From the NCBI RefSeq assembly GCF_009914755.1, contig NC_060925.1: a stretch of DNA of 64,000 bases; one strand, 5' to 3'. The translations under genes and the position numbers were made by a program. Each line of letters begins with the position of its first letter. Positions within the stretch are counted from its first letter, which is position 1. The DNA comes from the human T2T-CHM13v2.0 reference genome, Homo sapiens. Below, piece by piece: positions 9,214-38,170 of this stretch. Below the pieces are notes generated by a model. That model saw only the letters and a program-made list of their open reading frames with translations. It made no database searches and was not told the origin of the DNA.

Positions 9214-9915
9214 GTGAGTACACAGTGGGCTTCATTCCTGCCAACTAGTATCCGACCCTGCCAGATATCCGTGTGCCAACATGATTAGGGGGAAGAGGTC
9301 ACACTGACACACCCAGGCTATCATGGGGAAGGGGTAGCTGGGGCTCTATTTCACCACCCTTTATTGCTGGTTCAGGACCAGCTGTGTTACTACATTGTCT
9401 CCAAGGTCCCACCTTGGGGTAGAATTGCCCAACCCTTTTGGAAGTTGGGGGGGCGGTGGGCAGCACTGGCCACTTTTAAGTTACAGAGGTCAGCTGGTCC
9501 TGGGGAGGAGCAGCCAGGCTTTCCTTCAGGAAGCAGTTTCCCTACTAAGCAGATAACCAAGGCCCAGGGCAGCCTCAAGTTCCTGTGGAGCATGCCTGCC
9601 ATGTCCATAATCCATACTGATCCCGCCAGGAACCACTGGAATGCTTGTTCCTTGGCATAGAAGCCCAAGTCAGCTGCAACCTTGCAGCACAATTACACAC
9701 ATCTGCCAGCAGTACCCAGAGGGCCTATAGAAAGTGCAGGTGAAAGCAGATGCTAAGAGAATGCTCCATTAGGCAAAACCGCATACTATGAAAAAGCTTT
9801 AAAACACAACAGGAGGAGATGTGAAGACACAAACAAGTGCCTAGTGACACATGGCTATCAGAACACACTATAAGAACCCACACCGCTTCCCCACTTTACC
9901 CAGAAAAGGCAGGCT

Positions 9916-12036
9916 CTAGGCCACCTCCTCCTCCTCGGCTGTGGCGTCCTGGTACTGCTGATACTCAGACAGCAGGTCGTTCATGTTGCTCTTGGCCTCG
10001 GTGAACTCCATCACGTCCATGCCCTCGCCTGTGTACCAGTGCAGGAAGGCCTGGAACACACTCGAACAGCTCCCGGATGGCCGTGTTGTTGCCAATGCAG
10101 GTGGCCATTTTTAGCCCCTTGGGTGGGATGGCACAGATAGCCATTTTCACATTGTGAGGGAGCCAATCAGCAGAGTACCTGCTGTTCTTATTTTGAATAT
10201 TGAACATTTGCTCATCCACCTCCCTCATGGACACACAACCTCTGAAAATCGCAGGCACCGTTAGGTAGTGGCCATGACGGGGCTCACAGGCAACAATCAT
10301 ATTCTTAGCATCAAACATCTGCTGGGTGAACTCGGCCACAGTCAGGGACTGGTATTACTGGCTGCCCCGGCAGGTCAGTGGGGCAAAGCCAGGCATGAAG
10401 AAGTGCAGCCAGGAAACTAGGATCACGTTCGTGGCCAGCCTTTGCAGATCAGTATTCAGCTGGCCTGGGAAGAACAGGCACGTGGGGACCCCACTTGTGG
10501 TAGCAGACACCAGGTGATTCAGGTCACCGTAGGTGGGTGTGGGCAGTTTTAGGGTTCTGGAACAGATGTCACACAGAACTACAGAGCTTCACTATCAATG
10601 CAAAAGGTCTCATCTGCATTTTCCATGAGCTGGTGGACTGAGAGGGTGGCATTGTAGGGCTCCACCACGGTGTCTGACACCTTGGGCAAAGGCAGAACAC
10701 TGAATGTGTTTATGATCCTGTCTGGGTACTCCTCCCAGATCTTACTGATGAGAAGAGTATCCATCCCAGACCCAGTATTCCCACCCAGGGAGTGGGTAAG
10801 CTGGAAACCCTGCAGGCAGTCACAGCTCTCAGATTCTTTTTCACAACATCCATCAGCGTCTCCTTCAGCTCTGCACCTTCTGTGTAGTGCCCCTTGGCCC
10901 AGTTGTTCCCGGCCCCACACTGACCTGTAAGACAACACAGCAAGTCGCTGGATGGCCAGATATACAGTCATCAGGGGTCACCACAATGCAAAAAAGGGCC
11001 AAGTGTCACGTGTGAGGTGAAAGCACCATTCACCCTGCAGGTGGAGCAGGTGGACCTCCCTCCCCCAAAGCTGAAGGACAGCAGCCTCCCCTGTTAGAAG
11101 TTAAGTCAGGAGCCGAACCTGAGACAGCCTAACACAACAGACCTGGCTGCAGGTGGCTCCTGCCCATCCCCAAGAAAAGCAGCAGCCACTGCCCCCAGCC
11201 CAGCTCCCTGCAGAAAGATTGCATCAGCAGCTCCTCTCAGGCAGACAGCTGGGCCTTCCTCCCAAAGCCCGTTTAGGAGAAGGAGATTGCGTGACTCAGG
11301 ATGGGAGGGTGTTCAGGGGCCCTAGCTCCACAGTTCCCACAGCGATGACTTTCGGGCACTCCTTGAATTTGAGCGGCCCTGGCTAAGGAGCCTCACCCCA
11401 GTCCTCACCCGCAGCTCACCGAAGATGAAGTCGTCCGGCCTGAAGATCCTCCCGAATGGCGCTGAGCACACAGAGCCGATGGTGCCCGGCTCCACATCCA
11501 CAAGCACAGGGCGGGGCACGTACCTGCCACCTGAGGGGGGCGGGAGGGCATCAGCGAGGAGAGGGCCGCCATTCCCAGGAGGGCGGCTGGGGAAGGACAG
11601 GGGTCTCACCGCTGGCCTCGTTGTAGTACATGTTGATGCGCTCCAGCTGCAGGTCCCTGTCCCCGTGGCAGGTGCCAGCAGAGTCGATGGCATGTTCATC
11701 AGAGATCACCTCCCAGAACTGCGAGAGACACGAGGGGCCAAACAGGCCAGGGCTGAGTCACGGAGGCCAGGGAGCCCGAGGCTGCCCAGCCCCTCTCCTA
11801 TCCCCACCCCCAGGCCGCTGGATCCCTGGGGGTCCGCCCTGGCTGCCTAGCCAGCCACCCAGCTCCACCGCGTCCCAGGCGCGGAGACGGGGGGCCGCAA
11901 TACAGCCCCAGCCGCTGCCAACATCTTCTCGGGCCACCCGGCAGGCCCGCGCTGGGCCCTCAGAGCCCCGGCCACCAACCTTGGCACCGATCTGGTTCCC
12001 GCACTGCCCGGTCTGCCATAGCACGATCTCCCTCAT
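9916..12036 (-). pseudogene. TUBB8P10: Unprocessed TUBB8-like beta-tubulin pseudogene, 4 exons (probably TUBB8P10; symbol from memory)
   Basis: MREIVLWQTGQCGNQIGAK start with TUBB8-type residues [14 protein letters not shown] and [12 protein letters not shown]. Exon 4 has a frameshift after MDVVK, an in-frame TAG, an internal deletion and a shortened tail ...EEEEVA*. Confidence 0.93.
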
Positions 12037-13768
12037 GGCCACTGCTGGACTAGGGCGGCAGGAGAAACGCGAGGAGGAGCAGGAGCGCAGCGACAGGGCC
12101 AGTGCTCCGCCAACGCTAAAATAACCCCGCGCCCACCTCCCCCAGCCTCAGATTGGGCTCCCAGAATAAGCAACAGCTTTACTTCCACACAGGTGTACCC
12201 ACCTGTGAATCCCTTGGCGTTCAAGGTCTGTTGGAGAGCTCAGGTGGCCTTGCTGTGGTCCTTTCCACGTTGGGGAAAGCTGGTCAGCTGGAGAACTTCC
12301 TCCCATGTCTTTAGTAAGACTAAATCCCTAGCTGAGCTGAAATGGAATTTTCCTCCCGTGTGGAGGGGAAGCCTTTTGTTTCCGTGTTCACAGAGTGCCT
12401 TTGCACCTGTCCCACATTGATGACATATTTTTGTAATTGATGAGTCCCTTTCTATTAGGAGATCTGTGGTTAGGAGAGGCCTCCCCTATGTTAACTCGAC
12501 AGGAAGTAATTGTAAGTTTTCCTTTGGAGCAGCTCAAACCCGGAGTAAGCTATGGGTGTTAGAGATAGTCAGGCCTCTGACTTAGCTAGGGTCTTCTTTA
12601 GAGTATGATTAACCCTTTCACCTTTCCAGAGGACTGCGGTCTCCATGCAGAGTGAAGGTGATATTGGATTCCTAAAGCTGAGGATAGCTGTTGGGAGACG
12701 CCTGCTGTGAAAGATGGGCCATTGTCACTTTGCAGGCCTTTGGATGACCCAAAAGGAGGAATTATTTCTTCTGGTAAACACTTGTCAGATAGGGTGGGGA
12801 ATGCCTGGATCTAACCAGTGAATGTAACAGTAAGCATTAGCAAATACCTGAATCTCCTACAGAAAGGCATCTGAGTAAATTAGAGTTGCCAGTCCTCACC
12901 TGGATAGGTTCCTCAATGTTGGACAGGTTTAACTGGAGGAGGTGAAAATTGCTGGGTCTTTGGGTTATGTCAGACACAGCGCTCACAGGGCTGAGTCACC
13001 TGTTTTAGCGTCTTGAAAAGATTTATCCCCATAAACAAATGAGACATTAACTGAAGCAAAGAATCCCTTCTAGGGTGGAAAGAATCATGAAAGTGCTTAA
13101 TTATTTTCCTACAATGGGTGCTCGGCATTAGTAACTTATTACCATCAGCCAGCCAGCCAGAGGGATCCTGGACTGAACTGCAATCCCTGGCCCATTTTTG
13201 TTCTCTTCAGAGTGTTCTGGCCCAGCTCTGTGTACGCTGAGCAGTATGCCCAGAAGCTTCACTGGCCCTTTCAGTGCAGTGGCCTTGGCTGACACATCTG
13301 TGAGGGCATTTCCTTTTACACGGTCAGTCTCTCTTTTGATGTCCTCTGCAACGAATTACAGCCACTTTTTTTTTTAATGGCGGCAAAGCAGCATTCTAAC
13401 AAGCTCAAAATCTGAGTAATGTATGGAAAAGCCCTTCGTGGTCAGGAGTCCCTACCCATTCCAAATTGCAGCATAAGCATGAAGCACTAAGAAATCATAC
13501 TTGGAATCAGTGTAAATGTTAACTTTTAAGTCCTTTCCCAACTGCAGGGCTCTGGTAAGTTTAATTGACTCAGCTTTTTGAGCTGAGGTAGAGGCCAGCA
13601 AGGCTTGTGCCTTGATTATCTTGTGCCGACTAATAATAGCATACCTACCCTTCCTGTTTTCCTGATGCATAAGACAACCTGCATCTCTTAACCACTCTTC
13701 CTTGGGATGGTCAAGGGGCTCATCTCTCTTAAGTCTGGCCTGCTAGAATAACTTTGTTTCATAACCCG

Positions 13769-14421
<653 letters not shown>

Positions 14422-16103
14422 ACCTGTATGCCAGAAAGGTTGGGAGCACTTGTGGACCCTGGCAGATAAGTAACTGGGTTTATGGTTTGGCAGACTCTAA
14501 GGGTTATGTCTGGAGTGTCTAGCAATAAGGCCTGATACTTTAATAAATGTTCTCCTATTATCCACTGGTGCCCTTTAGCTTCTAGGACCACCTTCCCTTG
14601 ATGTGGGGTCAAAAACCTTTAGGTGCTGTCCTCATGCTAGTTCATTAGCTTTGCCTACTAGAAAAGTTGCAGCAGCAACAGCTCTAAGACATCCAGGCCA
14701 CCCTGAGGCCACCTGACCTATCTGCTTAGAAAAGTATGTTACAGCCCTTGGAATGTTCCCCAGTTTTGGGACAAGATTACCCAGGGCCTATGCCTTGCTT
14801 TTTGGCCACATAAAGATAAAATGATTCATCCAACTTGGGGACTCCCACAGCTGCAGCAGAGCCCAATTTCTCTTTGAGAGTATTGAAGATTTGCTTGCAG
14901 TTCTCATTACATTCAAGGAGCTCTAAATCTTTCCCTTTTAGTGCATCCCGTAAATGCTTGGCTACACGTCCAAATCTGGGCACCCGTAAGCAGCAGTACC
15001 CAGCCATCCCCTAAAAAGGCCCACAGTCATTTGTTGGACTGCGACTCTTGAATGACTAAAAGAGCTTTTTTACTTCTAGGGATGTTGATCAGTTCCAGAG
15101 GTGAATACAGATTCCAAATATTGGAGCCGTTGAGTCAAAATCTGAGCTCTGTATGGTGATACCCTATATCTGCTAGTTCCCAGGAAATTTATCAGTTTAA
15201 CAGTATTATTATCCGAGTCTTCTTTAGTTGGGCTAGCAATGAGTAAGTCACCTAGATACTGAATAATGGTGCCTGTTTGCAACTGTAAATTTCTTAAGTC
15301 CTTAGCTAGGGCATTTTCAAATAAGTGGGGGCTATCCTAGAACCCTTCAGAGAGGACCATCCAGGTTAGTTTTGAGGTTGAATGAGTATCTGGATCAGTC
15401 CATTCAAAGGCAAACATATTGCGAATCTGGATACATTGAGATGCAGAAAAATGCATCTTTCAGAACTAAGAATGTAAACCAGCTTGGATCCCCTGGGACT
15501 TGGGTAAGGATTGGGGACAATGGGGTGTATGGAGACAACAGCTGCATTTATTAATGCTCTAAGGTTTCTGACAAATCTGTACTTGCCAGATTAGGCTTTT
15601 GATCTGGTAACATGGGAGTATTGTAAGGAGACTCTCATGGCCTTAACAAGTCATACGGCAAGAATTTGGCAATAAGGGGTTGAATTTCCCCTCATGCTTC
15701 TTGCCTTAAAGTGTATTGTCTCTTCCAAGGGCGAGGAGCACTAGGCCAAAGTTGGATTTGAATGGGGGAAGTGTTTAGTGTGTTTCCCAGAGCCTGTGTG
15801 GCCCAAACCTCAGGATTTACTTGTGAGAACACCTCAGGTGGTAAATGTGACAGCTCATCCTTAACTTCTTTTTTTCCCCGAGGGGTCAGGAATAAAAGTC
15901 ACACTTTCTCTGCTTTATGATCTGTGAAGGTCACCATGGCTTGGTCACTGGAGTCAATAAAGCTCTCCCCAGTGAGAGGTCAGGCATTCAGACAATACTA
16001 GAAAGGCAGGTGAGAAGCCCAGAGGCCCTGGAGAACAACTTAGAAGATAAGAAAAGCAGTGTTTTCCGACTTGTCCATCATGGAAGACGGGAGCCCATCG
16101 TAT

Positions 16104-16504
16104 AATTTAAGGCCATACAAGACATCTTCCATCCAGCCTTAAAAATGTATAAATGTCCTAGGAGTGCAGCATTTTTTCTTAAAGATAAATTTAATGAGCT
16201 AGCTTAGGTCAAAGGGTTAATGGTCATTGTTAAAACCAATAACCCCTGCCTTTAGTGAGTACATCTGCACCTTCCAAGTTTAATTGTAACTCTTTCTCTT
16301 TACAGTTACTTATAAGTAGAGACACTAACAAAAGACATTGCATTCCTGCTTTTGTTTTCTGAGGATGCCCAACTCTGTAATGGAGTCATTTCTAATAAAC
16401 TTGCTTCTTGCACTGTGGTCTCTGACTCACCTCAAATGTTTTCCTGCACAAGATCTAAGAATCCTCCTTTGTGGTCTGTATCAGGACCCTCTTTTCCAGC
16501 AACA
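16104..16504 (+). mobile_element. 5'-truncated ERV1 5' LTR (LTR8/HUERS-like 3' end)
   Basis: aataaacttgc...caagatctaagaatcctcct...ggaccctcttttccagcaaca, followed by a degenerate PBS-like sequence (cagtaacaccatgaaggga, resembling the tRNA-Arg PBS tggcgaccacgaaggga). Confidence 0.75.
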
Positions 16505-22950
<6,446 letters not shown>

Positions 22951-23076
22951 GGGAGCCCAATCTGAGGCTGGGGGAGGTGGGCGCGGGGTTATTTTAGCGT
23001 TGGCGGAGCACTGGCCCTGTCGCTGCGCTCCTGCTCCTCCTCGCGTTTCTCCTGCCGCCCTAGTCCAGCAGTGGCC
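22951..23076 (+). promoter_or_regulatory. Residual beta-tubulin core promoter/5' UTR (CCAAT box, GC-rich box, degenerate TATA tattttagcgttggcggagc); mirror at 12037-12162
   Basis: ccaat at ~22957 and a TATA-like element at ~22990, resembling the TUBB4B TATAAGCGTTGGCGGAGC as I recall it; CpG-rich through exon 1/intron 1. Confidence 0.55.
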
Positions 23077-25199
23077 ATGAGGGAGATCGTGCTATGGCAG
23101 ACCGGGCAGTGCGGGAACCAGATCGGTGCCAAGGTTGGTGGCCGGGGCTCTGAGGGCCCAGCGCGGGCCTGCCGGGTGGCCCGAGAAGATGTTGGCAGCG
23201 GCTGGGGCTGTATTGCGGCCCCCCGTCTCCGCGCCTGGGACGCGGTGGAGCTGGGTGGCTGGCTAGGCAGCCAGGGCGGACCCCCAGGGATCCAGCGGCC
23301 TGGGGGTGGGGATAGGAGAGGGGCTGGGGAGCCTCGGGCTCCCTGGCCTCCGTGACTCAGCCCTGGCCTGTTTGGCCCCTCGTGTCTCTCGCAGTTCTGG
23401 GAGGTGATCTCTGATGAACATGCCATCGACTCTGCTGGCACCTGCCACGGGGACAGGGACCTGCAGCTGGAGCGCATCAACATGTACTACAACGAGGCCA
23501 GCGGTGAGACCCCTGTCCTTCCCCAGCCGCCCTCCTGGGAATGGCGGCCCTCTCCTCGCTGATGCCCTCCCGCCCCCGTCAGGTGGCAGGTACGTGCCCC
23601 GCCCTGTGCTTGTGGATGTGGAGCCGGGCACCATCGGCTCTGTGTGCTCAGCGCCATTCGGGAGGATCTTCAGGCCGGACGACTTCATCTTCGGTGAGCT
23701 GCGGGTGAGGACTGGGGTGAGGCTCCTTAGCCAGGGCCGCTCAAATTCAAGGAGTGCCCCAAAGTCATCGCTGTGGGAACTGTGGAGCTAGGGCCCCTGA
23801 ACACCCTCCCATCCTGAGTCACGCAATCTCCTTCTCCTAAACGGGCTTTGGGAGGAAGGCCCAGCTGTCTGCCTGAGAGGAGCTGCTGATGCAATCTTTC
23901 TGCAGGGAGCTGGGCTGGGGGCAGTGGCTGCTGCTTTTCTTGGGGATGGGCAGGAGCCACCTGCAGCCAGGTCTGTTGTGTTAGGCTGTCTCAGGTTCGG
24001 CTCCTGACTTAACTTCTAACAGGGGAGGCTGCTGTCCTTCAGCTTTGGGGGAGGGAGGTCCACCTGCTCCACCTGCAGGGTGAATGGTGCTTTCACCTCA
24101 CACGTGACACTTGGCCCTTTTTTGCATTGTGGTGACCCCTGATGACTGTATATCTGGCCATCCAGCGACTTGCTGTGTTGTCTTACAGGTCAGTGTGGGG
24201 CCGGGAACAACTGGGCCAAGGGGCACTACACAGAAGGTGCAGAGCTGAAGGAGACGCTGATGGATGTTGTGAAAAAGAATCTGAGAGCTGTGACTGCCTG
24301 CAGGGTTTCCAGCTTACCCACTCCCTGGGTGGGGGTACCGGGTCTCTGATGGATACTCTTCTCATCAGTAAGATCTGGGAGGAGTACCCAGACAGGATCA
24401 TAAACACATTCAGTGTTCTGCCTTTGCCCAAGGTGTCAGACACCGTGGTGGAGCCCTACAATGCCACCCTCTCAGTCCACCAGCTCATGGAAAATGCAGA
24501 TGAGACCTTTTGCATTGATAGTGAAGCTCTGTAGTTCTGTATGACATCTGTTCCAGAACCCTAAAACTGCCCACACCCACCTACGGTGACCTGAATCACC
24601 TGGTGTCTGCTACCACAAGTGGGGTCCCCATGTGCCTGTGCTTCCCAGGCCAGCTGAATACTGATCTGCAAAGGCTGGCCACGAACGTGATCCTAGTTTC
24701 CTGGCTGCACTTCTTCATGCTTCGCTTTGCTCCACTGTCCAGCCGGGGCAGCCAGCCAGTAGTACTCGGCCCTGACCATGGCTGAGTTCACCCAGCAGAT
24801 GTTTGATGCTAAGAATGATGGTTGCCTGTGAGCCCCGTCATGGCCACTACCTGACAGTGGCTGCCGTTTTCAGAGGTTGCATGCCCATGAGGGAGGTGGA
24901 TGAGCAAATGTTCAATATTCAAAATAAGAACAGCAGGTACTCTGCTGATTGGCTCCCTCACAATGTGAAAATGGCTATCTGTGCCATCCCACCCAAGGGG
25001 CTAAAAATGGCCACCTGCATTGGCAACGACACGGCCATCCGGGAGCTGTTCGAGTGTGTTCCAGGCCTTCCTGCACTGGTACACGGGCGAGGGCATGGAC
25101 GTGATGGAGTTCACCGAGGCCAAGAGCAACATGAACGACCTGCTGTCTGAGTATCAGCAGTACCAGGACGCCACAGCCGAGGAGGAGGAGGTGGCCTAG
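23077..25199 (+). pseudogene. TUBB8P9: Unprocessed TUBB8-like pseudogene (exons 23077-23133, 23395-23503, 23583-23693, 24189-25199; probably TUBB8P9, symbol from memory)
   Basis: Exon sizes of 57/109/111 nt match beta-tubulin genes and all GT-AG sites are intact. It has the same exon-4 lesions as the left copy. Confidence 0.93.
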
Positions 25200-25898
25200 A
25201 GCCTGCCCTTTCTGGTTAAAGGGGGGAAGCGGTGTGGATTCTCTAATGTGTTCTGATAGCCATGTGTCACTAGGCACTTGTTTGTGTCTTCACATCTCCT
25301 TCTGTTACATTTTAAAGCCTTTTTATAGTATGTGGTTTTGCCTGATAAAACATCCTAACAGCATCTGGTTTCACCTCCAACTTCTTTCTCTAGGCCCTCT
25401 GGGTGCTGCTGCCAGATGGGCATAGTGGTCCTGCAAGGCTGCAGCTATCTTGGTCTTATATGCCCAGGAACAAGCATTCCAGTGGCTCCAGGGTTGGGGG
25501 GGTCAGCATGGGCTTTGGACATGGCAGACAGGCTTCACACAAACTTGGGCGTGCCCTGGGCCTTGGGCATCTACTTGGTGGGAAACCTGTTCCTGAAGGC
25601 AAGCTGCAGCTTATCCCATGTACTGAACTCTGAGGGGACTAGCTGATCTTCTGTTTTTGGAACTTTAAAAGTGGCCAGTGATCCCGGTGGACAATGTCCC
25701 CAAAGTTCCACCTCTGGGTAGGGATATGGCCAGACAGCTGGCCCTGAACCAGCAATGAAGGGTAGGCAAGTAGAGCCTCAGCCACCCTCTTACCATGATG
25801 GGTTGAGTGTGTCCGTGTGGCCTCATTTTCTTCATGAGGAGGGCATGGGGTATCTGGCAGGGAGTAGTGGGCAGGAATCAAGCCCACCGTGTACTCAC

Positions 25899-27517
25899 AT
25901 GCAGTGAAACCCATGTAGAAAGGGATAGGCCCTGGGGGCTGTAGATGCGGTTGCTGGGTCTGTGTAATCTGGGCAGTCTCTAAAGGCACAGATGGGGTTT
26001 CTCAACAGGACCTGGGGAGACAGGCAGGTGCTCACACGTGCTGCTTCCCCCAGCTGGCAACTAGTGAGGAGAAAAGTACCCGAGTGGAGGTCTGACCTGC
26101 CTCAGTCTGGAGGGCTGATACACACTGTCTTCTGTCTTCCCTGTCCCCTGCTCCAAAATTTCAGGGCAAAAATAATCCAAGATTGCCAGGATGAGACAAG
26201 CAAGGGTGGCACATTTGGTGATAGGCCCTTTAGCTCAGCCGAGTCTCCTCCGCAGCTTCTCAGGGAGGCTGGACTTCAAGACCTGCTTTGGGGAAGCTTC
26301 AAATAAGAGATGCGTGTGTGAGCTGGGTGCTGGGCAGCATGCCTGGACAGTTCTCTTCTACTTGGCTCTTGTAGAACTCGTCCATGGCCTGTGTGATGAC
26401 CTCTTGGTATCTCCTCCCTGCATCACACAGATAGACAAGATGAAGCCAGCACAGCCTCGGGCTGGGCAGATGAACGGGTTCTATTCCAGGTCCCCTGGGC
26501 ATACCCACCTGCCTCCGATGTGTCAGGGAAAACGGGTGAGGCTCCTTTCTTTTTGTTCTCTGAATGTTGGCAATGGCCTATTGGGGCCAAATGGGAACAG
26601 GGAGGCAGAGTGCCTCATCTTGAAAGACGTGGCTCCTGGAAGGAGTGGGAGAGGTCCCCCTACTCCCCGAACCTATTCTCAGAGCAGGAAAAGGGGCCTC
26701 TGTGACAGCCCTCCTCAGTGGCTCTTACCCTCTGAGGGGTGTCCTTGCCCAGCCCAGCCCAGGTGTGCACCCACCTGAGATGGCCTTGTGTGGTTGGTTG
26801 GGAAGGTTCACCTGCAGCAACCACTGGGACCTGCCCACACCTAGTGTCTCCACTTGTGCGTGGGGTCAGATGTTCCTCCCTCCTGCAATGGTAGAGCCGG
26901 AGTGGCAGAAGGGGCAAGTCACTGCTGCGGTTCCCACCTGAGTCTGAGTGGGGGTCAGGCATGGTACTCATGTATTTCATAATTACCTGGTTTCATCTGG
27001 GGGGCTTCATGGACAGGAGTGGTGCTCTTCCAGGCCTGTTTTCCATATGCCAGCTGTAAGCCTGGGTTTCCCAAGTTTCTGGAGTCCCCCTTCCAGCCTG
27101 GCAAGCATGGTGGGTAGTCAGGGAAGGACATTAAGCCTACAGGCAGCACAACCTATCTGGGTATGTTCTCTACCCCTGGTGGCTCCTGGTTGTTTACCAC
27201 CCTGGGTGAGAGTCGGCTTAGGATCTTAACATTCTTGTAGGACTTCAGAACTGTACAGACAGGGGCCCAGGAGGGAGCAGGGGCTGGGACTGGCAGCTAA
27301 CCAGTGTAGTAGTGTGGGTCACAGGGCTCAGTTTGGTCTCAGCAGGGAATTCAGGGAAGCTTGGGTTTGCTGAAGTCCTAGATGAGCTTGGGCTTGGATA
27401 TGGGAACAACATGGAGCAGGGGCCCTTCTGCACACTGGAGTCTTTGAGTAGTTGCACCCTGGTGCATCCATAGGTATTCCCCACCTGGAGCGCAGCTGTG
27501 GATAGAAGCCAGCATAA
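25899..27517 (-). pseudogene. Unprocessed FAM166A/CIMIP2A pseudogene, right copy (exon remnants 27517-27302, 27250-26987, 26896-26775, 26455-26362, 26011-25899)
   Basis: ORF-track fragments YAGFYPQLR, GNTYGCTRVQLLKDSSVQKGPCS, PPCLPGWKGDSRNLG..YGKQAWKSTTPVHEAP, LYHCRREE, QAMDEFYKSQ and IPFYMGF are colinear with FAM166A as I recall it. Confidence 0.9.
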
Positions 27518-28771
27518 CTGTGGAGGGAAGAGGAGGAGGAGGCAGGGTGAGTCTCCAGGGCAGCCCCAGCAGCCAGGCAGGGCCTCTGCAAGTGAGATGC
27601 AGATCCAGCCTGTTGGCCACTTAGCAGCTGCTTGGCTGGCTGCAGGTCACCTGACCTCTGCTCACCAGTAAATGGGGGTTGTGGTAGCACCTACCTTCTG
27701 AGACTCCTGCAGCTTTGAAGGGGCAGCACATACCACGTGCTGAGAATGTGCCTGACTCAGGCAAGCTTCTCCAGCAGCACCACGTCAAATTAACATCCAA
27801 CTTGTACAGGACACCATCAAATCTCCCCATCCCTCATTCCAACTGTAGGAAAAGGGAGCCTCTGTCCTAGGGGAGCAAGAACAGGCATATTTATGCAGTA
27901 GGCACATGGCCCAGGTTGGGGAAAGGCCATTGGATACATGTTGGTTTCACCAGGAATCTGTGGGGTGGGTTCAGCCTAGTCCCCTGTACCCCAGGATGTC
28001 AGTAGCCCTCTGCACGGGACCAGGACTGAGAAGTGCGTGGGAGGGCTGAGCTTCGAGGGAAGCCATTATTTGGCCTCATGGGAAGTGGTGCAGGTGGTTG
28101 TTGGTGGTTCAGTTTTGCAAGGCCTGTGTGATCACCCAAGGAGTACAAATTGCCTTTTTTAAAAAAAATTGCTAAAATTGATGCAGCTCATCAGTTGAAA
28201 AGGTGAATAAGGCTGAGAGTCGGCTTCACCTGCCCCTTCCCCAGAAGTAACTGCTGTTCAGCACCTGCTCCTTCCCCAGAAGTAACTGCTGTTCAGAGAT
28301 GGGTTTGATTCCTTCCAAGCCTTTCCCCTTTGCATGCAGCTGTGTACACGTACTTAGGTGTAGACATACACCTGTTCCCTGGAGGGGTTACTTTTATTTT
28401 TTTATTTGGGGGATAACTAGTGAGGCAGCCTGGCATTTGCTCGTCTTGTCTTTTAAGTGTGGAGCCCTCTGTGGAGTGGGCACCAGGTACTTACTAGCTG
28501 GCCTCTGCCAGCTGTTTGGCTGACCCAGTTTCTGCCCTTCACAGACATGCTGGCCATCTGGTGTGACATTCAGCAGCCTTGTTCACAGCTAGTATAATGA
28601 AACAAATGGATCAGTTACCTTGTAAAATTGAAAAAGCATATAACATGCAGAGAGAAAAGAGTAAATGACCATGTGTATACTGCTCTGCTAAAGTCCATAT
28701 TACATGACTGAGATGACAAAAATTTTTTTCACCTGACATTTGGGTCCTGAGAAAGGGCATTGATGTGTTAC

Positions 28772-29068
28772 TTTTTTTTTTTTTTTTTTAGATAGAGTCT
28801 TGCTTTGTCACCCAGGCTGGAGTGCAGTGGTACAATATTGGCTCACTGCAACCTCCGCCTCCCAGGTTCAAGTGATTCTCTTGCTCAGCCTCCCAAGTAG
28901 CTGGGACTATAGGTGCATGCCACCAGGCCCAGCTAATTTTTTGCATTTTTAGTAGAGACGGGGTTTCATTGTGCTAGCCAGGATGGTCTTAATCTCCTGA
29001 CCTCATGATCCACCTGCCTTGGCCTCCCAAAGTGCTGGGATTACAGGTGTGAGTCACCTTGCCTGGCC
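28772..29068 (-). mobile_element. Alu (AluSc/Y-like), right arm only
   Basis: Poly-T followed by an Alu dimer; absent from the left paralogous region ~6350-6400. Confidence 0.9.
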
Positions 29069-29989
29069 TTTTTATTTATGATAGAGTTAGAAGAAATGCT
29101 ACCATGCTTTCTTTTCCATGATCCCCAACTCCCACTTCACCCCCTCTAGAGGAGCTCACCTGGTTAATGACAGCCTGGAATTATTTGAGCCAGGTCACTG
29201 TATAAAGGTCATACTGATTCTGTCCTCTTGTGCATCACTTGCTCAGCTCAGATATTTCATAGCTCCCTGTATACAGGTAGATGTGTTACCCTCTTAGCCT
29301 GCTTTCTTGGTTTGATACATGCCTGAGAGCATGTGAGAGCACTTAAGATCTGGGCTCATGGGAGGACTGTTCTGCCCACCCCATCTCTCCAGGTCAGCCT
29401 GCATGCATGCCTTCCTCCATCTGGTTCCAGAGTAGGGGAGGTCTCACATTGACCTCAAGTTTATGTGACTTTTTCTACCTCTACTTTCCCAGACAGCCCG
29501 TGCTGTGGGGCTTGTAAGGTGCCATGGGGATTTGTGAAGTCAATATCTACTTTTCTTGTTTGGGTGTTTTATAAATTAGAGCCCTGGAGGGGAATAAATA
29601 TTACAGGTACTCCAAACCCCTAATATATAATAAACATCTAAGCCTGTCCTTTTTTTGGTGGTAAAATGTACATATCATAAAACTTACAATTTTAACCATG
29701 TTCAAATGTACAGTTCAGTCACATCCAGTATATTCACAGTGTTGTACAGCCATCTCCTTTATTCATATCTACAACTTTTTTATTCTAAACTGAAACACCA
29801 TACCCATGAAGTCATTGTATAGAAGATTGATGCATTTGACTCTGTAAAAATTAAAACTTTCTATGAGAGAAAAATGCCTCAAAGTCAAAAGTCAACAGAC
29901 TGGGGAAATAGATCTGCAACATACATGACAGACAAAAAGCTAATTTGGGTAATATATATATAAAGCTATCATAAATTATTAAAAGACCT

Positions 29990-30392
<403 letters not shown>

Positions 30393-30761
30393 CTACTGTC
30401 ATCGCAGAAAACCTTCCTTGATTGTTCTACATGAATTAACTTATCTGTCTCTTTCTCCTCTCACTCTTCATTTTTTTAATTAGTACTCATTACTACCTGG
30501 CGTATGTGTGTAGAATTTTTTTTGTAGAGATGGGGTCTTGCTCTGATAATCATACATGTATATTTTTAATTTGCTGTCTCTCTTGCTTTTTTGTTCACCG
30601 TTCTCCTAAAATAATTCCAGGCATTTGTATGTGATTTGTAGGTATTGGTTGATATTAAATGAATGAATGTAATTAGTGTATTCTGTACACCATCAGTACA
30701 TATACTATTAAAGATGTGATAGGTTTCGTGTTTTCCTCTCTTTATATTGTTATTCCTATAT

Positions 30762-31215
30762 TGCAGCAGTCCCCAGTCTTTTTGGCACCAGGGACTGGTT
30801 TTGTGAAAAACAACTTTTCCATGGACTGGACAGGGGGATGGTTTCAGGATGATTCAAGTACATTACATTTATTGCATATTTTATTTCCATTATTACTGTA
30901 TTATAAAATGAAATAATTATACAACTCATCATAATATAGAATCAGTGGGAGACCTGAGCTTGTTTTCCTGCAACTAGACAGTTCCATCAGGGGATGATGG
31001 GAGACAGTGACACCCAAAATGTGGTGCTTATGTCCAATCTACTCTGTAACCTTGTTTTGGTTGCTGTCACTGCAAAAAACCCTGCTTCACAAAGACAGGA
31101 TGTTGGAAATGGAAGCAGGCATTTCAGTGATACTATTGACAAGGAAATGTCAGTGCTCTGTGGAGAATAGCAATGGCTACACTGTCCTTAAGTTTTACAT
31201 AACATTTGCTGTTAT
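30762..31215. mobile_element. MER1/Charlie3 hAT DNA transposon fragment
   Basis: Begins cagcagtccccagtctttttggcaccagggactggttttgtg, the MER1 terminus. Confidence 0.75.
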
Positions 31216-31475
31216 TGATCCTCCTCTGTGCTCTTTTTTTTTCTGATATATTTCCTCTCATCTTCCTCCTCTTAAATGGTACATATAATCCTGTTCTTTG
31301 ATTTCTAAATTTTTTAATGCTTTTCAATGCCTGCAGGTCTTTACTGAATACCTCTATAATCATTTAACTCCAATTCTATTTCAATAGCTAAACTGCCCAT
31401 CTGGTATTTCCATTGGTTATTATACTTATCACAAACTTGGTAAATCTGAAATTCGGTGCTATAGATAATTTTTTT

Positions 31476-33300
31476 GTGGTAGTTTAAAAATATGTTCAAA
31501 AATTATTTGAAAGTCTTCAAAAAGTATGAGGCATCTTCAAAAAGTTCATAGGAAGTGCATATTATGAAGAAACTATGCATAGATTTCAAAAATATTTTGC
31601 ACCTAAATAAACTTGTACTAACTTCTTATAACATGTCTGAACAGGATCTAATTTGAGGAATTATAATAAGAAAACTAAGACACCAATTTGAAAAGAGGTC
31701 CCATTAGAGCAACATGAATTCTGCTAAAATTAAAGCAAGAATAAACATAAAATTTATAGCAATATGGCAATTTTGGGTGAATAGTAAAATCACTGATTCT
31801 TTTATGACAAGTTTATGAGAACACTGCCCCCCAACATTCACAAGTTTACAAATGAATAACTCATTTGAAGAAGGGATACGATGTTGAAGATAAAGCCTGC
31901 AGTGGCAGACAATTCACATTAATTCACCAGAAAAAAAAAAAAACTTGTTCATGCCCTGCTTTAGGAATGACAACAGCATAAACAACAGCTAACATCATAG
32001 CCATCTCAACTGGTTAAATATACACAATTTTGAAAACTTTTCCACTCAATAGATTAAAAAACTCTTGTTTCCACATCAGCTGCAGACAAGAGCAGGGCTT
32101 TCAACTGAAATTTTACATAAGTGGAATCAAGATCCTGAAGCATTTCTTCAAATAATTGTAAGAGGAGGTCAAACACAGCTGTTCTAGTGAAATCCTCAAG
32201 ACAAAACACTATAAAAGCAATGGCTACCAAGAGGTAAAAGTGGTCCAGTCACAGCAAAAGGTGACTGTCTAGAACAAAGCTCATAGCAACAGTGTCTTAG
32301 GATGCTCAAGGCATTTTGTTTGTTGACTTTCTAGAGGACCAAAACCAAACCCCAATAACACGTGCTATTATGAGAGTATTTTGAGAAAGTTAAAGCTTTA
32401 GAAGAAAAACTTCCAGGAAATTTCACCAGAGAATTCTCCACCACAACAATGTTCTCCTCATTCCTCTCATCAAAAAAAAGACAATTTTGCCAGTTTCAAT
32501 GGAATATTATTGGGCATCCACCTTTTAGCCCTGATTTGGCTCCTGCTAACTTCTTCATTTTCTTTTCTGATCTTAAAAAAATCAGAAAAAGACGGGGGGA
32601 TGGTTTCAGGACACCCATTTTCTTCAGTTAATGATGTAAAAAAGACTATCTTGACATGGTTAAATTCCCAGGACCTTAGTTTTTGTAGGGATAGGTATTA
32701 TTGCTTATAAAAGTGTCTTGCATTTGATGAAGCTTATGTTGAGAAATAAAGTATATATTTTGTTTTTGTGTTTTACTTTGTTTTTTTTTTTTTTTTTACA
32801 AACTTATTGAAGTCCTTTCATTGATCCTAATTTTCTTCCTCTTGAAAGTATGTCAAGTTTAATAATCCTCTCTGGTGAATAGAATGTGACAGAAGTGAAC
32901 AAGTGTGATTTCTGAGTCTAGAGCATAAAGATTTTGCCACTTATGCTTTGCTTTTTCCTAAGCACTCACTGTGGAAGAAACCAGCAATTATTTGGTGAGA
33001 ACAGTCAAGCAACCTTACAAAAATATCCATGTGAAGAGAACCTGAGGCCTTCAATTACAAACCCCACCAACTTGTGGGCCGTGAATGTGAGCAAACTTGA
33101 AAGTGGATCTTCTAGTTTCGGTCAAGGCTTTGGATGACAGCCCCAGTTAAACTCTGTAACCACATGAGATATCCTGAGGCACAACCACCATGATAAATTG
33201 TTCTTGAATTCCTCATTTACAGAAACTCAATTAGGTAATAAATATTGTGATTTTATGCCACAAAGTTTTGGGGTTATATGTTATGAAATGATATATAGCA
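31476..33300 (+). mobile_element. MLT1-type MaLR LTR split by HSMAR2 (31476-31524 and 32821-33300)
   Basis: tgtggtag... start; MLT1-like end (taataaatattgtgatttt...ttttggggttatatgttat). Confidence 0.6.
31525..32820 (+). mobile_element. Near full-length, defective HSMAR2 mariner transposon
   Basis: TIR-like ends (tatgaggcatcttcaaaaagttcat / aacttattgaagtcctttca); transposase start MNSAKIKARINIKF at 31714; HPPFSPDLAP motif; multiple stops. Confidence 0.9.
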
Positions 33301-33339
33301 ATTTCACACTTTCAACATCCATTTTATTTTTTATACAAA

Positions 33340-33692
33340 CATACATTTTTAATAATGGAGATATATCTTGAGAAACGCACCACTGTGTAATATTGCTGCA
33401 TGGACATCATAGAATGTACTTACACAAACCTAGGTGGTATAGCTATACCTAGGTGGTATAGCTATACCTAGGTGGTATAGCCATACCTAGGTGGTATAGC
33501 CTATCACACACCTAGACTATCTGGTATAGCTTATTGCTCCTAAACTACAAACCTGTATAGCATGTTACTGTGCTGAATACTGTAGGCAATTGTAACACAA
33601 GGGTCAGCATTTGTGTATATAAACATAGAAAAGGTACAGTAAAAATATGGTATAAAAGATTTAAAAATGATACACTTGAATGGGGCACTTAC
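33340..33692. mobile_element. Tigger3/MER7-type DNA transposon fragment containing a 4x ~19-bp tandem expansion (cctaggtggtatagctata, ~33429-33500)
   Basis: Contains gaatgtacttacacaaacctag... and acaaacctgtatagcatgttactgtgctgaatactgtaggcaattgtaacacaa. Confidence 0.8.
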
Positions 33693-35486
33693 CTCAGGTG
33701 GTCTGCTAATTTTCATGGTCACATGAAGATTCCACTGAGATATATTCTGCACTACCCACTGCCATAGGTGACAGCCTTGACTATGTGCACCACCCATGAA
33801 GGTCCCCTTTGCCTTGCTTTTCCTGACTTGTCAAGTGCATGATGATGTGGTAAGCCAGCATAAGAGCTGAACTCTGTTCTTTTTCTATTGAGTTCTGCAG
33901 CTATTTATCCTGAGTTTGGTGCCTAGATTTTGTAGACTCCATTTCTTTGACATTCTTGGTAGAATCAGGCCATCTTCATCTCATTGCGCTATCCTTGTGT
34001 TACTGTTATGTGTTATGATGCCTAAAGTTATTTTTTGTAAGAATAACCCAAGGGTAGGCCATAGGCATAGGACCTTTGAGCCTATTGTTTGAGCCAACCT
34101 CACAGAGAGGACAGTTAGTGGTTTTCCCTGGATCAGCATCAATTTGGATAAATATTGCTGTCAGTTACTATGAAACTGGTTACATTCTCCTTTCACTTTT
34201 TTTGTCTTAAGAAAACATCTTTAATCCATAGAGCATGTTTTCTCTGGTTTTATACCCACCAGGATCACAGGCTTTTTTCTGCTTTAAGATATGGCCAACC
34301 ATCACATTAGGGCCTAGACATTAGGTGCACAGAATTACATACAAACTGTCCTCTAAATACTCTTCATTTTAGGACAAAACTATTGGTACTTATATATACT
34401 TTTATTACAATTCTTACGCTTATTTCTCTGAATAGCATTACTTCATCAAGGATTATTTGAAACTTTAATGGCCACATTAATGATTGACTAGAGAAACATT
34501 GTTCCTTTGAAAGGCATGTTAGAAAAACCAAGATTCCTCGGGTCCAATGGGCAGTATTTTTAGTTGGTAGGCAAAGGAGTCCACATATAATTCTGAATTA
34601 AACATTGCTCCACTAAAATATTCTGTGGTTAAAGATGGCTAAAGATGAAAAATTTTACAATCAGAAGTAACAAAAACTAGATACATTTTTTAGTAAATCC
34701 TTCCCCTCCTTGTCTTTCCGTTGCTTCCTGGTGTGCAGCTCTCCCTCCTGCCCCTTAGGATTCTGATCTCTCTTCTCCTCTGCCCCACCACTGACTTCTC
34801 TTTCTTGCTTTTTGTTCTGAAATTATTTTCCCAACTGTCATAAATTCCCAACTTTCTTACATCTAAAGATCCACATTTACCATGACCCAGATATATAAGC
34901 GACTGCAGAATTTAAATCTAGCGCATGAGTTCAGAGTCTACATGAACTAACAAGTTATACATGAACTAACAAGTTATAATTAACAATTTTTAAAAACTAA
35001 ACAAAGTCAAATATTCATCAAATAATTTAGAATTATTTAGGGCATACATGGCCCAGGGTTACTTGACATATCAACTTGTACACCTGTTAATTGGAACATC
35101 AGATGCTAAATCCTGGATGATGAAATGTCTGACCTGGTAGGAAATTTGTAGAATTCCTCTTTCCAGAATAAATATCAGGGTCAAAATCATTCATAAAAAC
35201 ATGAATAAAATTATTAAATTATAGAAGAATTTGGAGATAGACTATAAAACATTGTCACAACTCAGAGTTAAAACGGGTTTTTATTAAAAATCTATGTAAA
35301 AGTTATAAAACTTAAAATCTTAACTGGGATAATTATATAATAAAAGCTATCATAAATGCTCAACAGGAAACTTCAGAAATTTTATTTTGTCATTTATGTT
35401 TTACTATCAACTATAATTACTGTGTTTCTTGTAAGAAATATACCATTATGAGGTGATCAGAATCAGGTAAGGAGGTTAGACATTCC

Positions 35487-35940
35487 CTCATTTATTCACC
35501 CAGCAACCCTGCCACAGAACTAAACCTGTGCGAAGTGCCCTGGTGGGCCCAGCATGTGGTGCTGGGAAATGATTGAGTGGCCCTTTCCCCCACTCAAGGA
35601 GCCCACAGTCTGAGGATATATGGACAAAAACACTAAAGCAAGTGCATATAAAAGAAGAGTAAATGCTATAATTAAAGTAGGATGTTGGGAGGGAGGGCTG
35701 GGGAGCCATAGCATTTGAGGGACCCAAATGCCTCACTGAGGTGACATTTATGCCATGACTAGGATGACAACAGAGGGCTAGCCCTGCACAAGTCTGGGAA
35801 CAGTGTATCAGGGAGATGCCACTCCTGGTGCAGAGACATGCAGGCAGAAGTGACTTTGGCAGAGGATGTGAGAAAGAGGCCAGTGGGGCTAGAGGGAGCC
35901 TGGGGAAGAGAAGTAGAGAGGCAAGGAGGACTCTGAGGCC
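35487..35940 (-). mobile_element. L2 3' fragment
   Basis: cattccctcatttattcacccagca terminus followed by L2-like body sequence. Confidence 0.6.
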
Positions 35941-35959
35941 TGGAAGAAGAAGATAGTGA

Positions 35960-36860
35960 TCTGCTTCTCTCTGACGTCATTATCCCCAAACTTAGCACCT
36001 TCGAACAACAAATGCTTACTTATCTCATGACTTAGGTGGACTAGAATCTGGACACAGCTTTGCTGGCTGCCTGCAATGAGGCTGGGGCTGTGTTCTCAGC
36101 TGAAGCTGGGCTGTGGGAGGATTGGCTTCGAGGCACACTCATGTGGGTATCGGCTGGATTCAGTGTAGACTGAGAGCCTGAGAGTCTCCCCTGGCCTGGG
36201 CACTCCCTCATTCTCTGTTGTGTAGGCCTCTGCACAGGGCAGCTCATAACACTGGAGCTTGCTTTCTGAATTTGAGGAATGCAGTAGAAAGTCAGGAAGA
36301 AAAATACATATTGACAGAGAAAGAGAATGAGGGAGAAAACACTGGACAGAGTAAACAGAAGAGATGAGAGAGATTGAGGAAGAACACACAGAAGAAAGTG
36401 ACTAGGAGAAAATGGCAGCTTTTTGGATAATAACATAATGAGAGTTGCAATAGACTAAACATTTCCCCACCAAAAATTGTATATGTTGAAATCCTGGTCC
36501 CCCGTATAACAGTACTAGGAAGTGGGGGGTAATTAGGTCCTGAAGGTGAAACCCTCATGAGCGGGATTACTGGCTCTATAAAAGAAACCCCAGAGAGCTC
36601 CTTCCTCCACTATCTGTCAGGTAAAAATACAATGTAAAGTCTACAGTCTGCAACTCAGAAGAGAGTTCTCACCAGACTCCATCCATGCTGGCGTTCTGAT
36701 CTTCAACTTCTGTCCTCCAGAACTGTGAAGAAGAACATTCTGTTGTTGATAAGCGGCTCAGTCTATCTTTGCTATAACAGCGTGACCTAGGACAGAAGTG
36801 TTATCCCATCATTTTCGTTGCATTCTGTTGGTCAGAAGTGAGTCACTAACTCCTTAGTGT
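35960..36860. mobile_element. Old MLT LTR with a nested MLT1A/MST-like LTR (36445-36795, plus strand)
   Basis: MaLR hallmarks (tatatgttgaaatcct...gaaaccctcatgag...tccagaactgtgaag). Confidence 0.55.
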
Positions 36861-37866
36861 TGTGAGCCCTTCCTATAGGCTGCCCAACACATAGGCCAAA
36901 ATGAAGGACATGGGTCTGATTCTGAATATAATGAGAAGGCACTGAAAGGAGTAATGTCAGAGGATGACAATATCTGAATTTCATTTCATCTGAAACTCTT
37001 ACTGGTGCAGAATGAAAAATGGGGCTGAGAGGGGAAGTGACTTTCCAATAACACACTGCTGGACACAGGCTTGTTTGAATTGTATTTTATGCTACCTCCC
37101 ATTCCTTATAATTCTTTTATCTCTAAGTGTGTGCGTTATCTACGTGGGATGCCACACCATGAGTTTTACAAGTTTTATCTCATACACACCTGATGAGTTC
37201 CCTAGGAAGGAGATGCTGGCATGTTACCCCATTGTACATGTTGAAAGGCCCCAAAACCCACAATAACTTTTCTGGTGTCACAGAACTAGTAAGAAAAAGT
37301 AGATTGTTACCTGGATCTGTGATCTCACACCTGAGGCCCTGGCTGCATTCAGGTCTTTCCAGGGAACTGAGAAGGGCTGTACTTGCATAACTGTGCACAG
37401 GTAAAGAGTTGACATGCAGGGATAGTGAGCAGTCAATAGCCCAGCAGGGCCTTTGGGTAGGTCTTATGGAAGCAAGGAGCCCAGAGGATGAAACTTTGAA
37501 AAAGCCATCTTACTACCTTGGTGACAGACCCCAACAAAACTTAGAACTCTGGTAGCCAAGCACCCACACCCTAGAGACAGCCCTGTATCCAGGTCACTTG
37601 GTGGGAAATGCTTAAGAGAGCATGATGTGCTCCTGCTCTATCCCAACTCTCTTAGGCTCTTGCTTCAGGAAGGCCTAAAGTGAAAACCTTTTCTGAGATG
37701 CTCACATTGGCTTATTCCTCACCCAAGATGCCTCTGGAGATTTTGCAGAGGTCACCCAGAGGTAACATACAGTAGGCCGAGGGCAGGCCCCTCCAGCCTA
37801 GGTCTCACCAGTGCTTTCATTTCCCTTTGCATTAGAATGTAAAGAAAAATCAGGAATTTAAAATAG

Positions 37867-38170
<304 letters not shown>

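What the first reader, a model, noticed from the sequence alone, without database searches (positions are those of the whole stretch)
25899..27517. Hidden FAM166A/CIMIP2A pseudogenes tail-to-tail with each tubulin copy: a fossil of the TUBB4B locus
Seen: five exon remnants with intron structure occur downstream of, and antisense to, both TUBB8-like genes (second copy at 7587-9213). Established: TUBB4B and FAM166A (a ciliary microtubule inner protein) are convergent neighbours on 9q34.3. Inference: the TUBB8 family arose by DNA-level duplication of the TUBB4B-FAM166A block. Both copies share an exon-2 frameshift (ctccagg) and a dead exon-4 acceptor (tgg/cgg), so FAM166A died before these arms separated. 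These pseudogenes may be unannotated.
Basis: partly seen in the sequence, partly recalled or inferred. Interest (0 to 1): 0.72.

Follow-up and report, generated by a model that had tools for sequence, protein, structure and literature searches.

The report
Fossil neighbour gene reveals TUBB8's origin
Broken remains of a sperm-tail gene (CIMIP2A/FAM166A) sit behind both tubulin pseudogenes here and behind all 17 related human copies checked, so the human egg's tubulin gene TUBB8 likely began as one 5.6-kb DNA copy of the TUBB4B region in an early monkey ancestor; the remains themselves are likely dead passengers.

Summary
Confirmed and extended. Both arms of an inverted duplication carry an intron-containing CIMIP2A (FAM166A) remnant, antisense and tail-to-tail to a TUBB8-family pseudogene. 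There are six exons (2-7), not five. Exon 1 and the promoter are absent here and have no second copy in the genome. All 17 intron-containing TUBB8-family copies found carry the remnant. Copies that reach the block's ends share them: just 5' of the TUBB4B TATA box, fused to a decayed endogenous retrovirus, and inside CIMIP2A intron 1. So one ~5.6-kb DNA block founded the family, and CIMIP2A was probably dead on arrival. Protein placement, a 12-nt stretch later lost from catarrhine CIMIP2A, and TUBB8-clade proteins in capuchin put the event before the New/Old World monkey split. The exon-2 frameshift is universal (17 of 17); the exon-4 acceptor loss is not (one copy keeps CAG). Arm A holds the family's deepest-branching remnant, while the tubulins were homogenised by gene conversion. 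A predicted lncRNA already covers copy B and reuses five CIMIP2A splice sites. This is an ordinary kind of object (a passenger pseudogene) but a good marker of TUBB8's birth. GENCODE status and the key 2002 paper could not be checked.

The parts
27302..27517 (-). CIMIP2A exon 2 remnant, copy B; both splice sites intact and used by the predicted lncRNA; family-wide 1-nt deletion
26987..27250 (-). CIMIP2A exon 3 remnant, copy B; keeps the ancestral 12 nt lost from catarrhine CIMIP2A
26775..26896 (-). CIMIP2A exon 4 remnant, copy B; acceptor CGG; family-wide 5-nt and 1-nt deletions
26362..26455 (-). CIMIP2A exon 5 remnant, copy B
25899..26011 (-). CIMIP2A exon 6 remnant, copy B
25356..25435 (-).
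27518..28562 (-). CIMIP2A intron 1 remnant, copy B; homology stops about 245 bp short of exon 1; lacks the two Alus now in the parent
7587..7797 (+). CIMIP2A exon 2 remnant, copy A
7880..8119 (+). CIMIP2A exon 3 remnant, copy A; acceptor dead (CTG)
8210..8333 (+). CIMIP2A exon 4 remnant, copy A; acceptor TGG
8670..8764 (+). CIMIP2A exon 5 remnant, copy A
9087..9213 (+). CIMIP2A exon 6 remnant, copy A; small tandem duplication before the donor
9683..9758 (+). CIMIP2A exon 7 remnant, copy A
6593..7586 (+). CIMIP2A intron 1 remnant, copy A
23077..25199 (+). TUBB8P9, four-exon frameshifted tubulin pseudogene, ATG to stop
   Evidence: supplied gene table
9916..12036 (-). TUBB8P10, four-exon frameshifted tubulin pseudogene, ATG to stop (the supplied model omits exon 1)
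22947..28562 (.). Founding block copied from the chr9 TUBB4B-CIMIP2A locus, copy B (parent L024 2383-8585)
6593..12166 (.). Founding block, copy A
16104..22946 (+). Decayed class-I-like endogenous retrovirus: LTR-like repeat about 16105-16504, then gag, protease, RT, RNase H and integrase fragments in order; the tubulin core promoter is joined at the integrase C-terminal end
12167..16103 (-). Inverted partial copy of the same retroviral DNA in arm A
19008..25254 (.). Inner arm homogenised with 16103-9860: 15 mismatches in 5291 columns up to 24300, 93-98% to 25254, about 80% beyond
25235..37969 (-). Predicted lncRNA LOC105373122 (XR_007071145.1); 5 of its 11 splice ends inside the block are CIMIP2A sites; longest ORF 91 codons
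   Evidence: supplied gene table

Best explanation
The two stretches are broken, intron-containing copies of CIMIP2A (FAM166A) exons 2-7 that lack exon 1, and they are likely dead passengers of one DNA duplication of the TUBB4B region that likely founded the whole TUBB8 family before New and Old World monkeys split. SHOWN: every copy that reaches the ends of the block starts at the same base just upstream of the TUBB4B TATA box and stops in CIMIP2A intron 1, with shared foreign DNA beyond both ends (retroviral pol on the tubulin side). Exons of the remnant decay at the intron rate. The tubulin half stayed under purifying selection. INFERRED: a ~5.6-kb piece was copied out of 9q34.3 and joined to or inserted into an endogenous retrovirus; the tubulin got a whole frame plus core promoter and survived, while CIMIP2A, cut off from its promoter and start codon, was non-functional from birth. 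The enlarged unit then spread by segmental duplication. The earliest surviving split is the inverted pair in this window, whose inner arms were later homogenised by gene conversion up to the tubulin's 3' end. Copy B is predicted to be transcribed from a new start about 9 kb beyond the junction, as a lncRNA that reuses leftover splice sites.
For: Parent identity. Colinear match far above shuffles. 17 of 17 intron-containing TUBB8-family loci carry the remnant (16, chr16; loci counted); the other beta-tubulin loci have no match (21 of 21 candidates scored). Same ends: parent 2383 in 14 loci and about 8581-8585 in 17 loci of the 19 stretches compared; shared flanks. No second copy of exon 1 or its promoter: 15 non-self matches, all confined to the intron-1 end; none of the upstream TUBB4B promoter. 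Shared lesions: exon-2 d1 17 of 17, exon-4 d5 and d1 16 of 16, exon-7 acceptor deletion 13 of 13. Neutral decay: after the first split 0-fold sites changed at 0.096 and 0.084 against 0.090 and 0.100 in introns; before it, 39 of 235 polarised codons changed on the copy stem against 13 on the parent line. dN/dS to parent: TUBB8 0.10, remnants 0.39-0.61. Age: placement as sister to all simians AU 0.97, sister to catarrhines 0.039, hominoids 0.008, platyrrhines 0.004; 12-nt stretch kept by copies, marmoset, Aotus and lemur but lost in macaque and apes; capuchin proteins share 24 of 38 and 18 of 29 TUBB8-specific residues, clade support 100. Conversion: arms are sisters in the tubulin tree (100) but arm A is the deepest copy in the CIMIP2A-region tree (100).
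Against: Shared junctions show only the state of the last common ancestor of the surviving copies; a longer first copy that lost exon 1 early would look the same. A 56-nt exon cut off by a rearrangement could be missed by the seed search. Placement as sister to all primates was not rejected (AU 0.106), and at 7 simian-derived sites the copies had the derived state 0 times, so the event could be older; no tarsier sequence was on hand. The TATA-side search did not even report the short known overlaps, so it is insensitive. One search scored only 40 of 74 candidates, so 17 is a lower bound. At least 15 further loci carry the retroviral flank; the 4 checked keep only tubulin exon 1 and have lost the remnant by deletion, so 'every copy' is not literally true. 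The lncRNA is a predicted model; I saw no reads.
Confidence: 0.86

Rival explanations
1. The whole CIMIP2A gene was duplicated with TUBB4B, worked for a while as a second sperm-flagellum gene, and lost exon 1 and its frame later but before the surviving copies split (closer to the first reader's wording).
For: Pairwise dN/dS to the parent is 0.39-0.61, below 1; the stem is long, so early events are hidden.
Against: The low pairwise ratio is expected because the parent branch is constrained: 39 stem changes against 13 parent changes, and the stem carries as many amino-acid changes as the fully dead terminal branches (43 of 245, 39 of 241). No trace of exon 1 elsewhere in the genome.
Confidence: 0.09
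2. The remnant has been kept because it works as an antisense non-coding RNA that controls the neighbouring tubulin copies.
For: LOC105373122 overlaps the 3' end of TUBB8P9 and uses 5 CIMIP2A splice sites of 11 inside the block; the remnant travelled with 17 of 17 full copies.
Against: Exonic and intronic sites decay alike; the reused splice sites are dead in other copies, e.g. the exon-4 donor is AT in 13 of 16; its tubulin partner here is itself dead; physical linkage explains the co-travel.
Confidence: 0.04
3. The similarity is chance, a repeat, or a retrocopy of an mRNA.
For: Single exons are weak alone: the copy-B exon 2 gives only E 0.053 against PF10629.
Against: Over 5 kb of colinear DNA at about 70% including all introns; shuffles reach 28 bits at most.
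Confidence: 0.01

Closest known systems
CIMIP2A / FAM166A (ciliary microtubule inner protein 2A, Pfam PF10629), chr9q34.3
   Same: Exon order, sizes, introns, most splice sites and the tail-to-tail position against a beta-tubulin gene. Described as the sperm replacement for FAM166B inside doublet microtubules (10.1101/2022.09.29.510157, passages read).
   Different: No exon 1, promoter or start codon; frameshifts and stops; keeps 12 nt that the human gene lost; lacks two later Alus.
Unprocessed (duplicated) pseudogene fragments carried inside segmental duplications
   Same: DNA-level copy with introns, truncated at a duplication breakpoint, neutral decay, partial reuse by non-coding transcripts (class known from general knowledge).
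   Different: Much older than typical catalogued duplications (K2P about 0.34-0.38 to parent, 0.005-0.27 among copies), so it falls below the usual 90% identity cut-off and marks the founding event of a gene family.
TUBB4Q/TUBB8 subtelomeric duplicon (van Geel et al. 2002; Ambrosini et al. 2007 block 8; community C2 in bioRxiv 10.64898/2026.07.10.737660)
   Same: The same family of tubulin-bearing blocks at 4q, 10p, 18p and elsewhere (passages read).
   Different: The passages read name no FAM166A/CIMIP2A content (0 occurrences in both papers). Van Geel 2002 could not be read; as I recall it, it dates the spread within catarrhines, whereas the founder here is older.
Palindrome arm-to-arm gene conversion
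   Same: Inverted arms around a short spacer with near-identical inner parts.
   Different: Autosomal, about 10-kb arms, with a sharp step from 99.7% to about 80% near the tubulin 3' end.

Membership tests
Unprocessed pseudogene of CIMIP2A | Best non-family match in the genome is CIMIP2A, colinear | tested here: met
Unprocessed pseudogene of CIMIP2A | Introns retained (DNA-level copy) | tested here: met
Unprocessed pseudogene of CIMIP2A | Disabling lesions, no intact frame | tested here: met
Unprocessed pseudogene of CIMIP2A | Neutral decay of coding sites | tested here: met
   0-fold rate equals intron rate after the first split
Unprocessed pseudogene of CIMIP2A | Complete copy of the gene | tested here: not met
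   exon 1 and promoter absent; it is a 5'-truncated fragment
Transcribed pseudogene | Spliced RNA from the locus | not testable with these tools
   only the predicted RefSeq model; its splice ends are canonical AG/GT
Processed pseudogene (retrocopy) | Introns lost, poly(A) tail | tested here: not met
TUBB8 duplicon | Adjacent tubulin carries TUBB8-specific residues and the shared junctions | tested here: met
   25 and 26 of 38 TUBB8-specific residues; junctions
Functional CIMIP2 protein (PF10629) | Open frame passing the Pfam cut-off | tested here: not met
   14.1 bits against cut-off 21.6; longest ORF of the spliced lncRNA 91 codons
Already catalogued in GENCODE/HGNC | An overlapping FAM166A pseudogene model | not testable with these tools
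   No GENCODE table on hand. An Ensembl id recalled for the chr10 model occurs in a testis row of a supplementary table of PMC9641868, but nothing there names its parent or place.

The most novel reading that the evidence does not exclude
The founding break itself made TUBB8 an egg gene: it cut TUBB4B's upstream promoter away, left only the TATA core, and fused it behind a retrovirus whose LTR, in the same orientation, is still about 3 kb upstream of the working TUBB8 on chr10 and its chr18 and chr16 relatives. The CIMIP2A fossil would then date and map the promoter swap that gave monkeys and apes their own meiotic-spindle tubulin.
Probability: 0.2. Interest if true: 0.78.

Novelty: new member of a known kind. 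Interest (0 to 1): 0.42.

Why it matters
TUBB8 is the main tubulin of the human oocyte spindle and a cause of female infertility (recalled; the paper was not held). Tubulin proteins are too conserved to show which gene it came from or when. The dead neighbour does: it names the donor (TUBB4B at 9q34.3), gives both ends of the founding piece to within a few tens of bases, dates it to before the New/Old World monkey split, and gives a tree free of the gene conversion that blurs the tubulin copies. It also shows that the new gene's upstream DNA is retroviral, which makes the origin of its oocyte-specific expression testable. In practice it supplies copy-specific flanks and flags 19 places where CIMIP2A-like reads can mis-map. 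The remnant itself is probably inert.

Tried and rejected
Chance and retrocopy readings: rejected. The exon-4 acceptor as a clean shared lesion: rejected as weak; CGG, TGG and CAG fit one A-to-G change followed by CpG decay in both directions, or separate losses. Dating the arms from the tubulins: rejected because of conversion. The 12-nt 'insertion' in all copies is not a lesion but the ancestral state. The acrocentric and pericentromeric loci were checked as possible pre-insertion sites of the retrovirus; the 4 of 15 examined are deletion derivatives instead, so no empty site was found. A match between the lncRNA's intron-4 exon and an ape cassette exon is an overlap only; the ends differ, so it was not counted. 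A 14-column 'shared insertion' in exon 6 is an alignment artefact next to a deletion and was dropped. Rfam found nothing in the window. The flanks of the other beta-tubulin genes were not read directly; that control rests on their absence. Literature: ten searches showed no paper on this; (FAM166A with TUBB8) listed one unrelated paper; the 30 listed of 39 papers held only FAM41C or FAM41AY1. Supplement searches of three papers for FAM166A/CIMIP2A gave only the parent gene's expression row. bioRxiv supplements were closed and one large table of PMC9641868 was unreadable; either could hold an annotation.

Full report
1. What is in the window. Self-comparison shows an inverted duplication: 19008-28777 against 16103-6378, extending in pieces to 29988 and 2886. 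Identity between arms is not uniform: 15 mismatches in 5291 columns up to 24300, 93-98% to 25254, then about 75-85% across the flagged stretch.

2. The observation. A genome search with 25899-27517 gave 23 matches (21 of 21 candidates scored); the most distant full-length one, 70%, is at chr9:149.48 Mb. That locus (L024) holds a 7-exon, 954-nt frame of 317 codons with AG/GT sites on the minus strand and a 445-aa tubulin on the plus strand, their 3' ends adjoining. Exons 2 and 3 match FAM166A/CIMIP2A chains of mouse and cattle and named primate CIMIP2A proteins at 92-96% in apes. The name TUBB4B for the tubulin rests on its C-terminal tail and position (recalled), not on a call. TBLASTN gives colinear hits in both arms, best 126 and 72.8 bits against at most 28.1 in 20 shuffles. 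Exon 7 is also present, so six exons survive.

3. The block and its ends. With the parent's Alus masked, its homology to the copies starts at L024 2383, about 150 bp before the tubulin ATG and just before the TATA box, and ends at 8581-8585 in CIMIP2A intron 1, about 245 bp short of exon 1. Of 19 stretches compared (two overlap on chr4), 14 loci show the first end and 17 the second; the rest are truncated inside the block (chr16 adds one more first end). A search with exon 1, its promoter and the 5' part of intron 1 returned 15 non-self matches, all limited to the last 105 bases already known. Beyond both ends the copies share the same foreign DNA at 80-91%. On the tubulin side this is a decayed retrovirus: Pfam fragments of Gag p30, protease, RT, RNase H, integrase zinc finger, core and C-terminal domain lie in order at 18414-22962, 8 of 20 natural frames scanned matching, mostly below the curated cut-offs, behind a 400-bp dispersed LTR-like repeat at 16105. 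Shared junctions mean one founder.

4. The family. One search lists 17 loci whose tubulin aligns with the window copy beyond exon 4 (40 of 74 candidates scored, so a lower bound). All 17 carry the remnant: 16 and the chr16 copy, cut inside exon 6. Two more remnants on chr14 and chr22 have no tubulin within the 10 kb fetched. Other beta-tubulin loci match only in exon 4 or as retrocopies and have no remnant; only the chr9 gene aligns across introns. Fifteen further loci have the retroviral flank; the 4 checked keep tubulin exon 1 and then jump to the equivalent of window 29831, a 6.7-kb deletion.

5. How it died. Lesions common to all copies with data: a 1-nt deletion in exon 2 (17 of 17; 18 aligned), 5-nt and 1-nt deletions in exon 4 (16 of 16), and a deletion of the exon-7 acceptor (13 of 13; that alignment left out three near-duplicate copies and three had no data there). 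The exon-4 acceptor is dead in 15 of 16 but intact at chr1:241.47 Mb. After the first split, 0-fold sites changed as fast as introns (0.096 and 0.084 against 0.090 and 0.100). Before it, 39 of 235 codons that could be polarised changed on the copy stem, 13 on the parent line, 6 were ambiguous. There is no sign of a working phase, which fits a fragment born without promoter or start codon. The tubulin half behaved differently: dN/dS to the parent is 0.10 for the chr10 gene and 0.28-0.29 for the window copies, and only the chr10 copy and one of two chr18 copies tested have a full frame.

6. When. All eight copies examined keep 12 nt in exon 3 that marmoset, owl monkey, mouse lemur and other mammals have and that macaque and apes lost. 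One of the parent's two intron-1 Alus has a clear target-site duplication and the copies show the empty site; the other is simply absent. In fixed-topology tests the copies fit best as sister to all simians (AU 0.974); positions inside simians and sister to lemur were rejected at 0.004-0.039; sister to all primates was not (0.106). As an independent check, two capuchin proteins share 24 of 38 and 18 of 29 TUBB8-specific residues and group with TUBB8 at support 100, while the lemur and other sequences tested share 0-4 (only the best 120 of 545 hits were listed, so absence in lemurs or tarsier is not shown). The New/Old World monkey split is about 43 million years old (recalled).

7. The two arms. 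In the CIMIP2A-region tree arm A is sister to all other copies (support 100, K2P 0.22-0.27 to them) and arm B groups weakly with chr1:241 Mb; in the tubulin tree the arms are close sisters (100). So the arms are the oldest surviving pair, and their inner parts were overwritten by gene conversion. That the family began at 1q42 is suggested, not shown.

8. Annotation and transcription. The supplied RefSeq table has no CIMIP2A pseudogene. Copy A is bare. Copy B lies under the predicted lncRNA XR_007071145.1. Of its 11 splice ends inside the block, four are canonical CIMIP2A sites (exon-2 acceptor and donor, exon-3 donor, exon-4 donor) and one is the internal exon-3 acceptor used in chimpanzee and gorilla isoform models; where the exon-4 acceptor died it uses an AG 14 nt downstream. 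Its first two exons lie outside the block. Its longest ORF is 91 codons. I recall GENCODE models described as FAM166A pseudogenes beside some TUBB8 copies but could not verify this.

9. Literature. Ten searches found nothing linking FAM166A/CIMIP2A to TUBB8 (listings and abstract starts only). Passages read: PMC2323237 (TUBB4q block; reference to van Geel 2002), bioRxiv 10.64898/2026.07.10.737660 (TUBB8 duplicon), bioRxiv 10.1101/2022.09.29.510157 (FAM166A in sperm doublets, TUBB4B the main sperm beta-tubulin), PMC11821543 (one mention of TUBB8 copies), PMC12519442 (no relevant text). Supplements searched: PMC9641868, PMC8108447, PMC11821543. Van Geel 2002 and Feng 2016 were not held; what I say of them is recalled. 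The library lacks most subscription papers, so absence from print is not established.

10. Verdict. As an object it is a truncated duplicated pseudogene, a known kind, and probably inert. Its value is as a marker: it fixes donor, ends and age of the event that made TUBB8, and shows a retrovirus next to the new gene's core promoter; on chr10 the LTR-like repeat lies about 3 kb upstream of TUBB8 in the same orientation. Whether that drives oocyte expression is untested. Interest 0.42; new member of a known kind.

Noticed in passing
window 11980-12090: The supplied RefSeq model of TUBB8P10 has three exons and stops at 11720, but exon 1 with its ATG (12036) is present and identical to that of TUBB8P9.
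   Followed up: yes
window 16104-22946; chr10:44826-45697, chr18:43999-44876, chr16:96176793-96177670, chr9:150436973-150437825: The retrovirus upstream of the tubulin is about 6.8 kb here, but in the chr10, chr18, chr16 and chr9 copies the LTR-like end lies only about 3 kb from the tubulin, implying a shared internal deletion.
   Followed up: partly
L043-L046 (chr14, chr20, chrY) and 11 more loci: A subfamily on acrocentric short arms, chr20 and chrY keeps retroviral flank, promoter and tubulin exon 1 only, joined to the equivalent of window 29831 (4 of 15 checked).
   Followed up: partly
window 57000-62000: A GC-rich stretch with a CpG island (RefSeq silencer 59180-59779) is shared at 83-88% with chr12p11, 10p and 18p ends near TUBB8 copies, so the travelling unit was tens of kb; beyond it are 67-70% matches to chr4:1.80 Mb, chr1:246.5 Mb and chr16:38.9 Mb of unknown nature.
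   Followed up: partly
L027-L030 (chr18:37-201 kb): Four tandem copies about 54 kb apart; of the two tested, one has a full tubulin frame and one a frameshift.
   Followed up: partly
L024 exon 3; P0002-P0015: CIMIP2A evolves fast in primates: a 4-residue deletion specific to catarrhines, and a long marmoset branch with a divergent C-terminus in its models.
   Followed up: partly
L035 (chr1:304 kb), L033 and L034 (chrY): I recall lncRNAs FAM41C and FAM41AY1/2 lying beside these tubulin copies; they may also run through CIMIP2A remnants. Not tested.
   Followed up: no
window 20690-21340: A MaLR-type LTR-like repeat with an Alu inside it interrupts the retroviral pol; it is in both arms (repeat class judged by eye, recalled).
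   Followed up: no
L035 1744-2361 and L038 near 1963: A short tandem repeat has expanded in tubulin intron 3 of the chr1:302 kb and chr4 copies.
   Followed up: no
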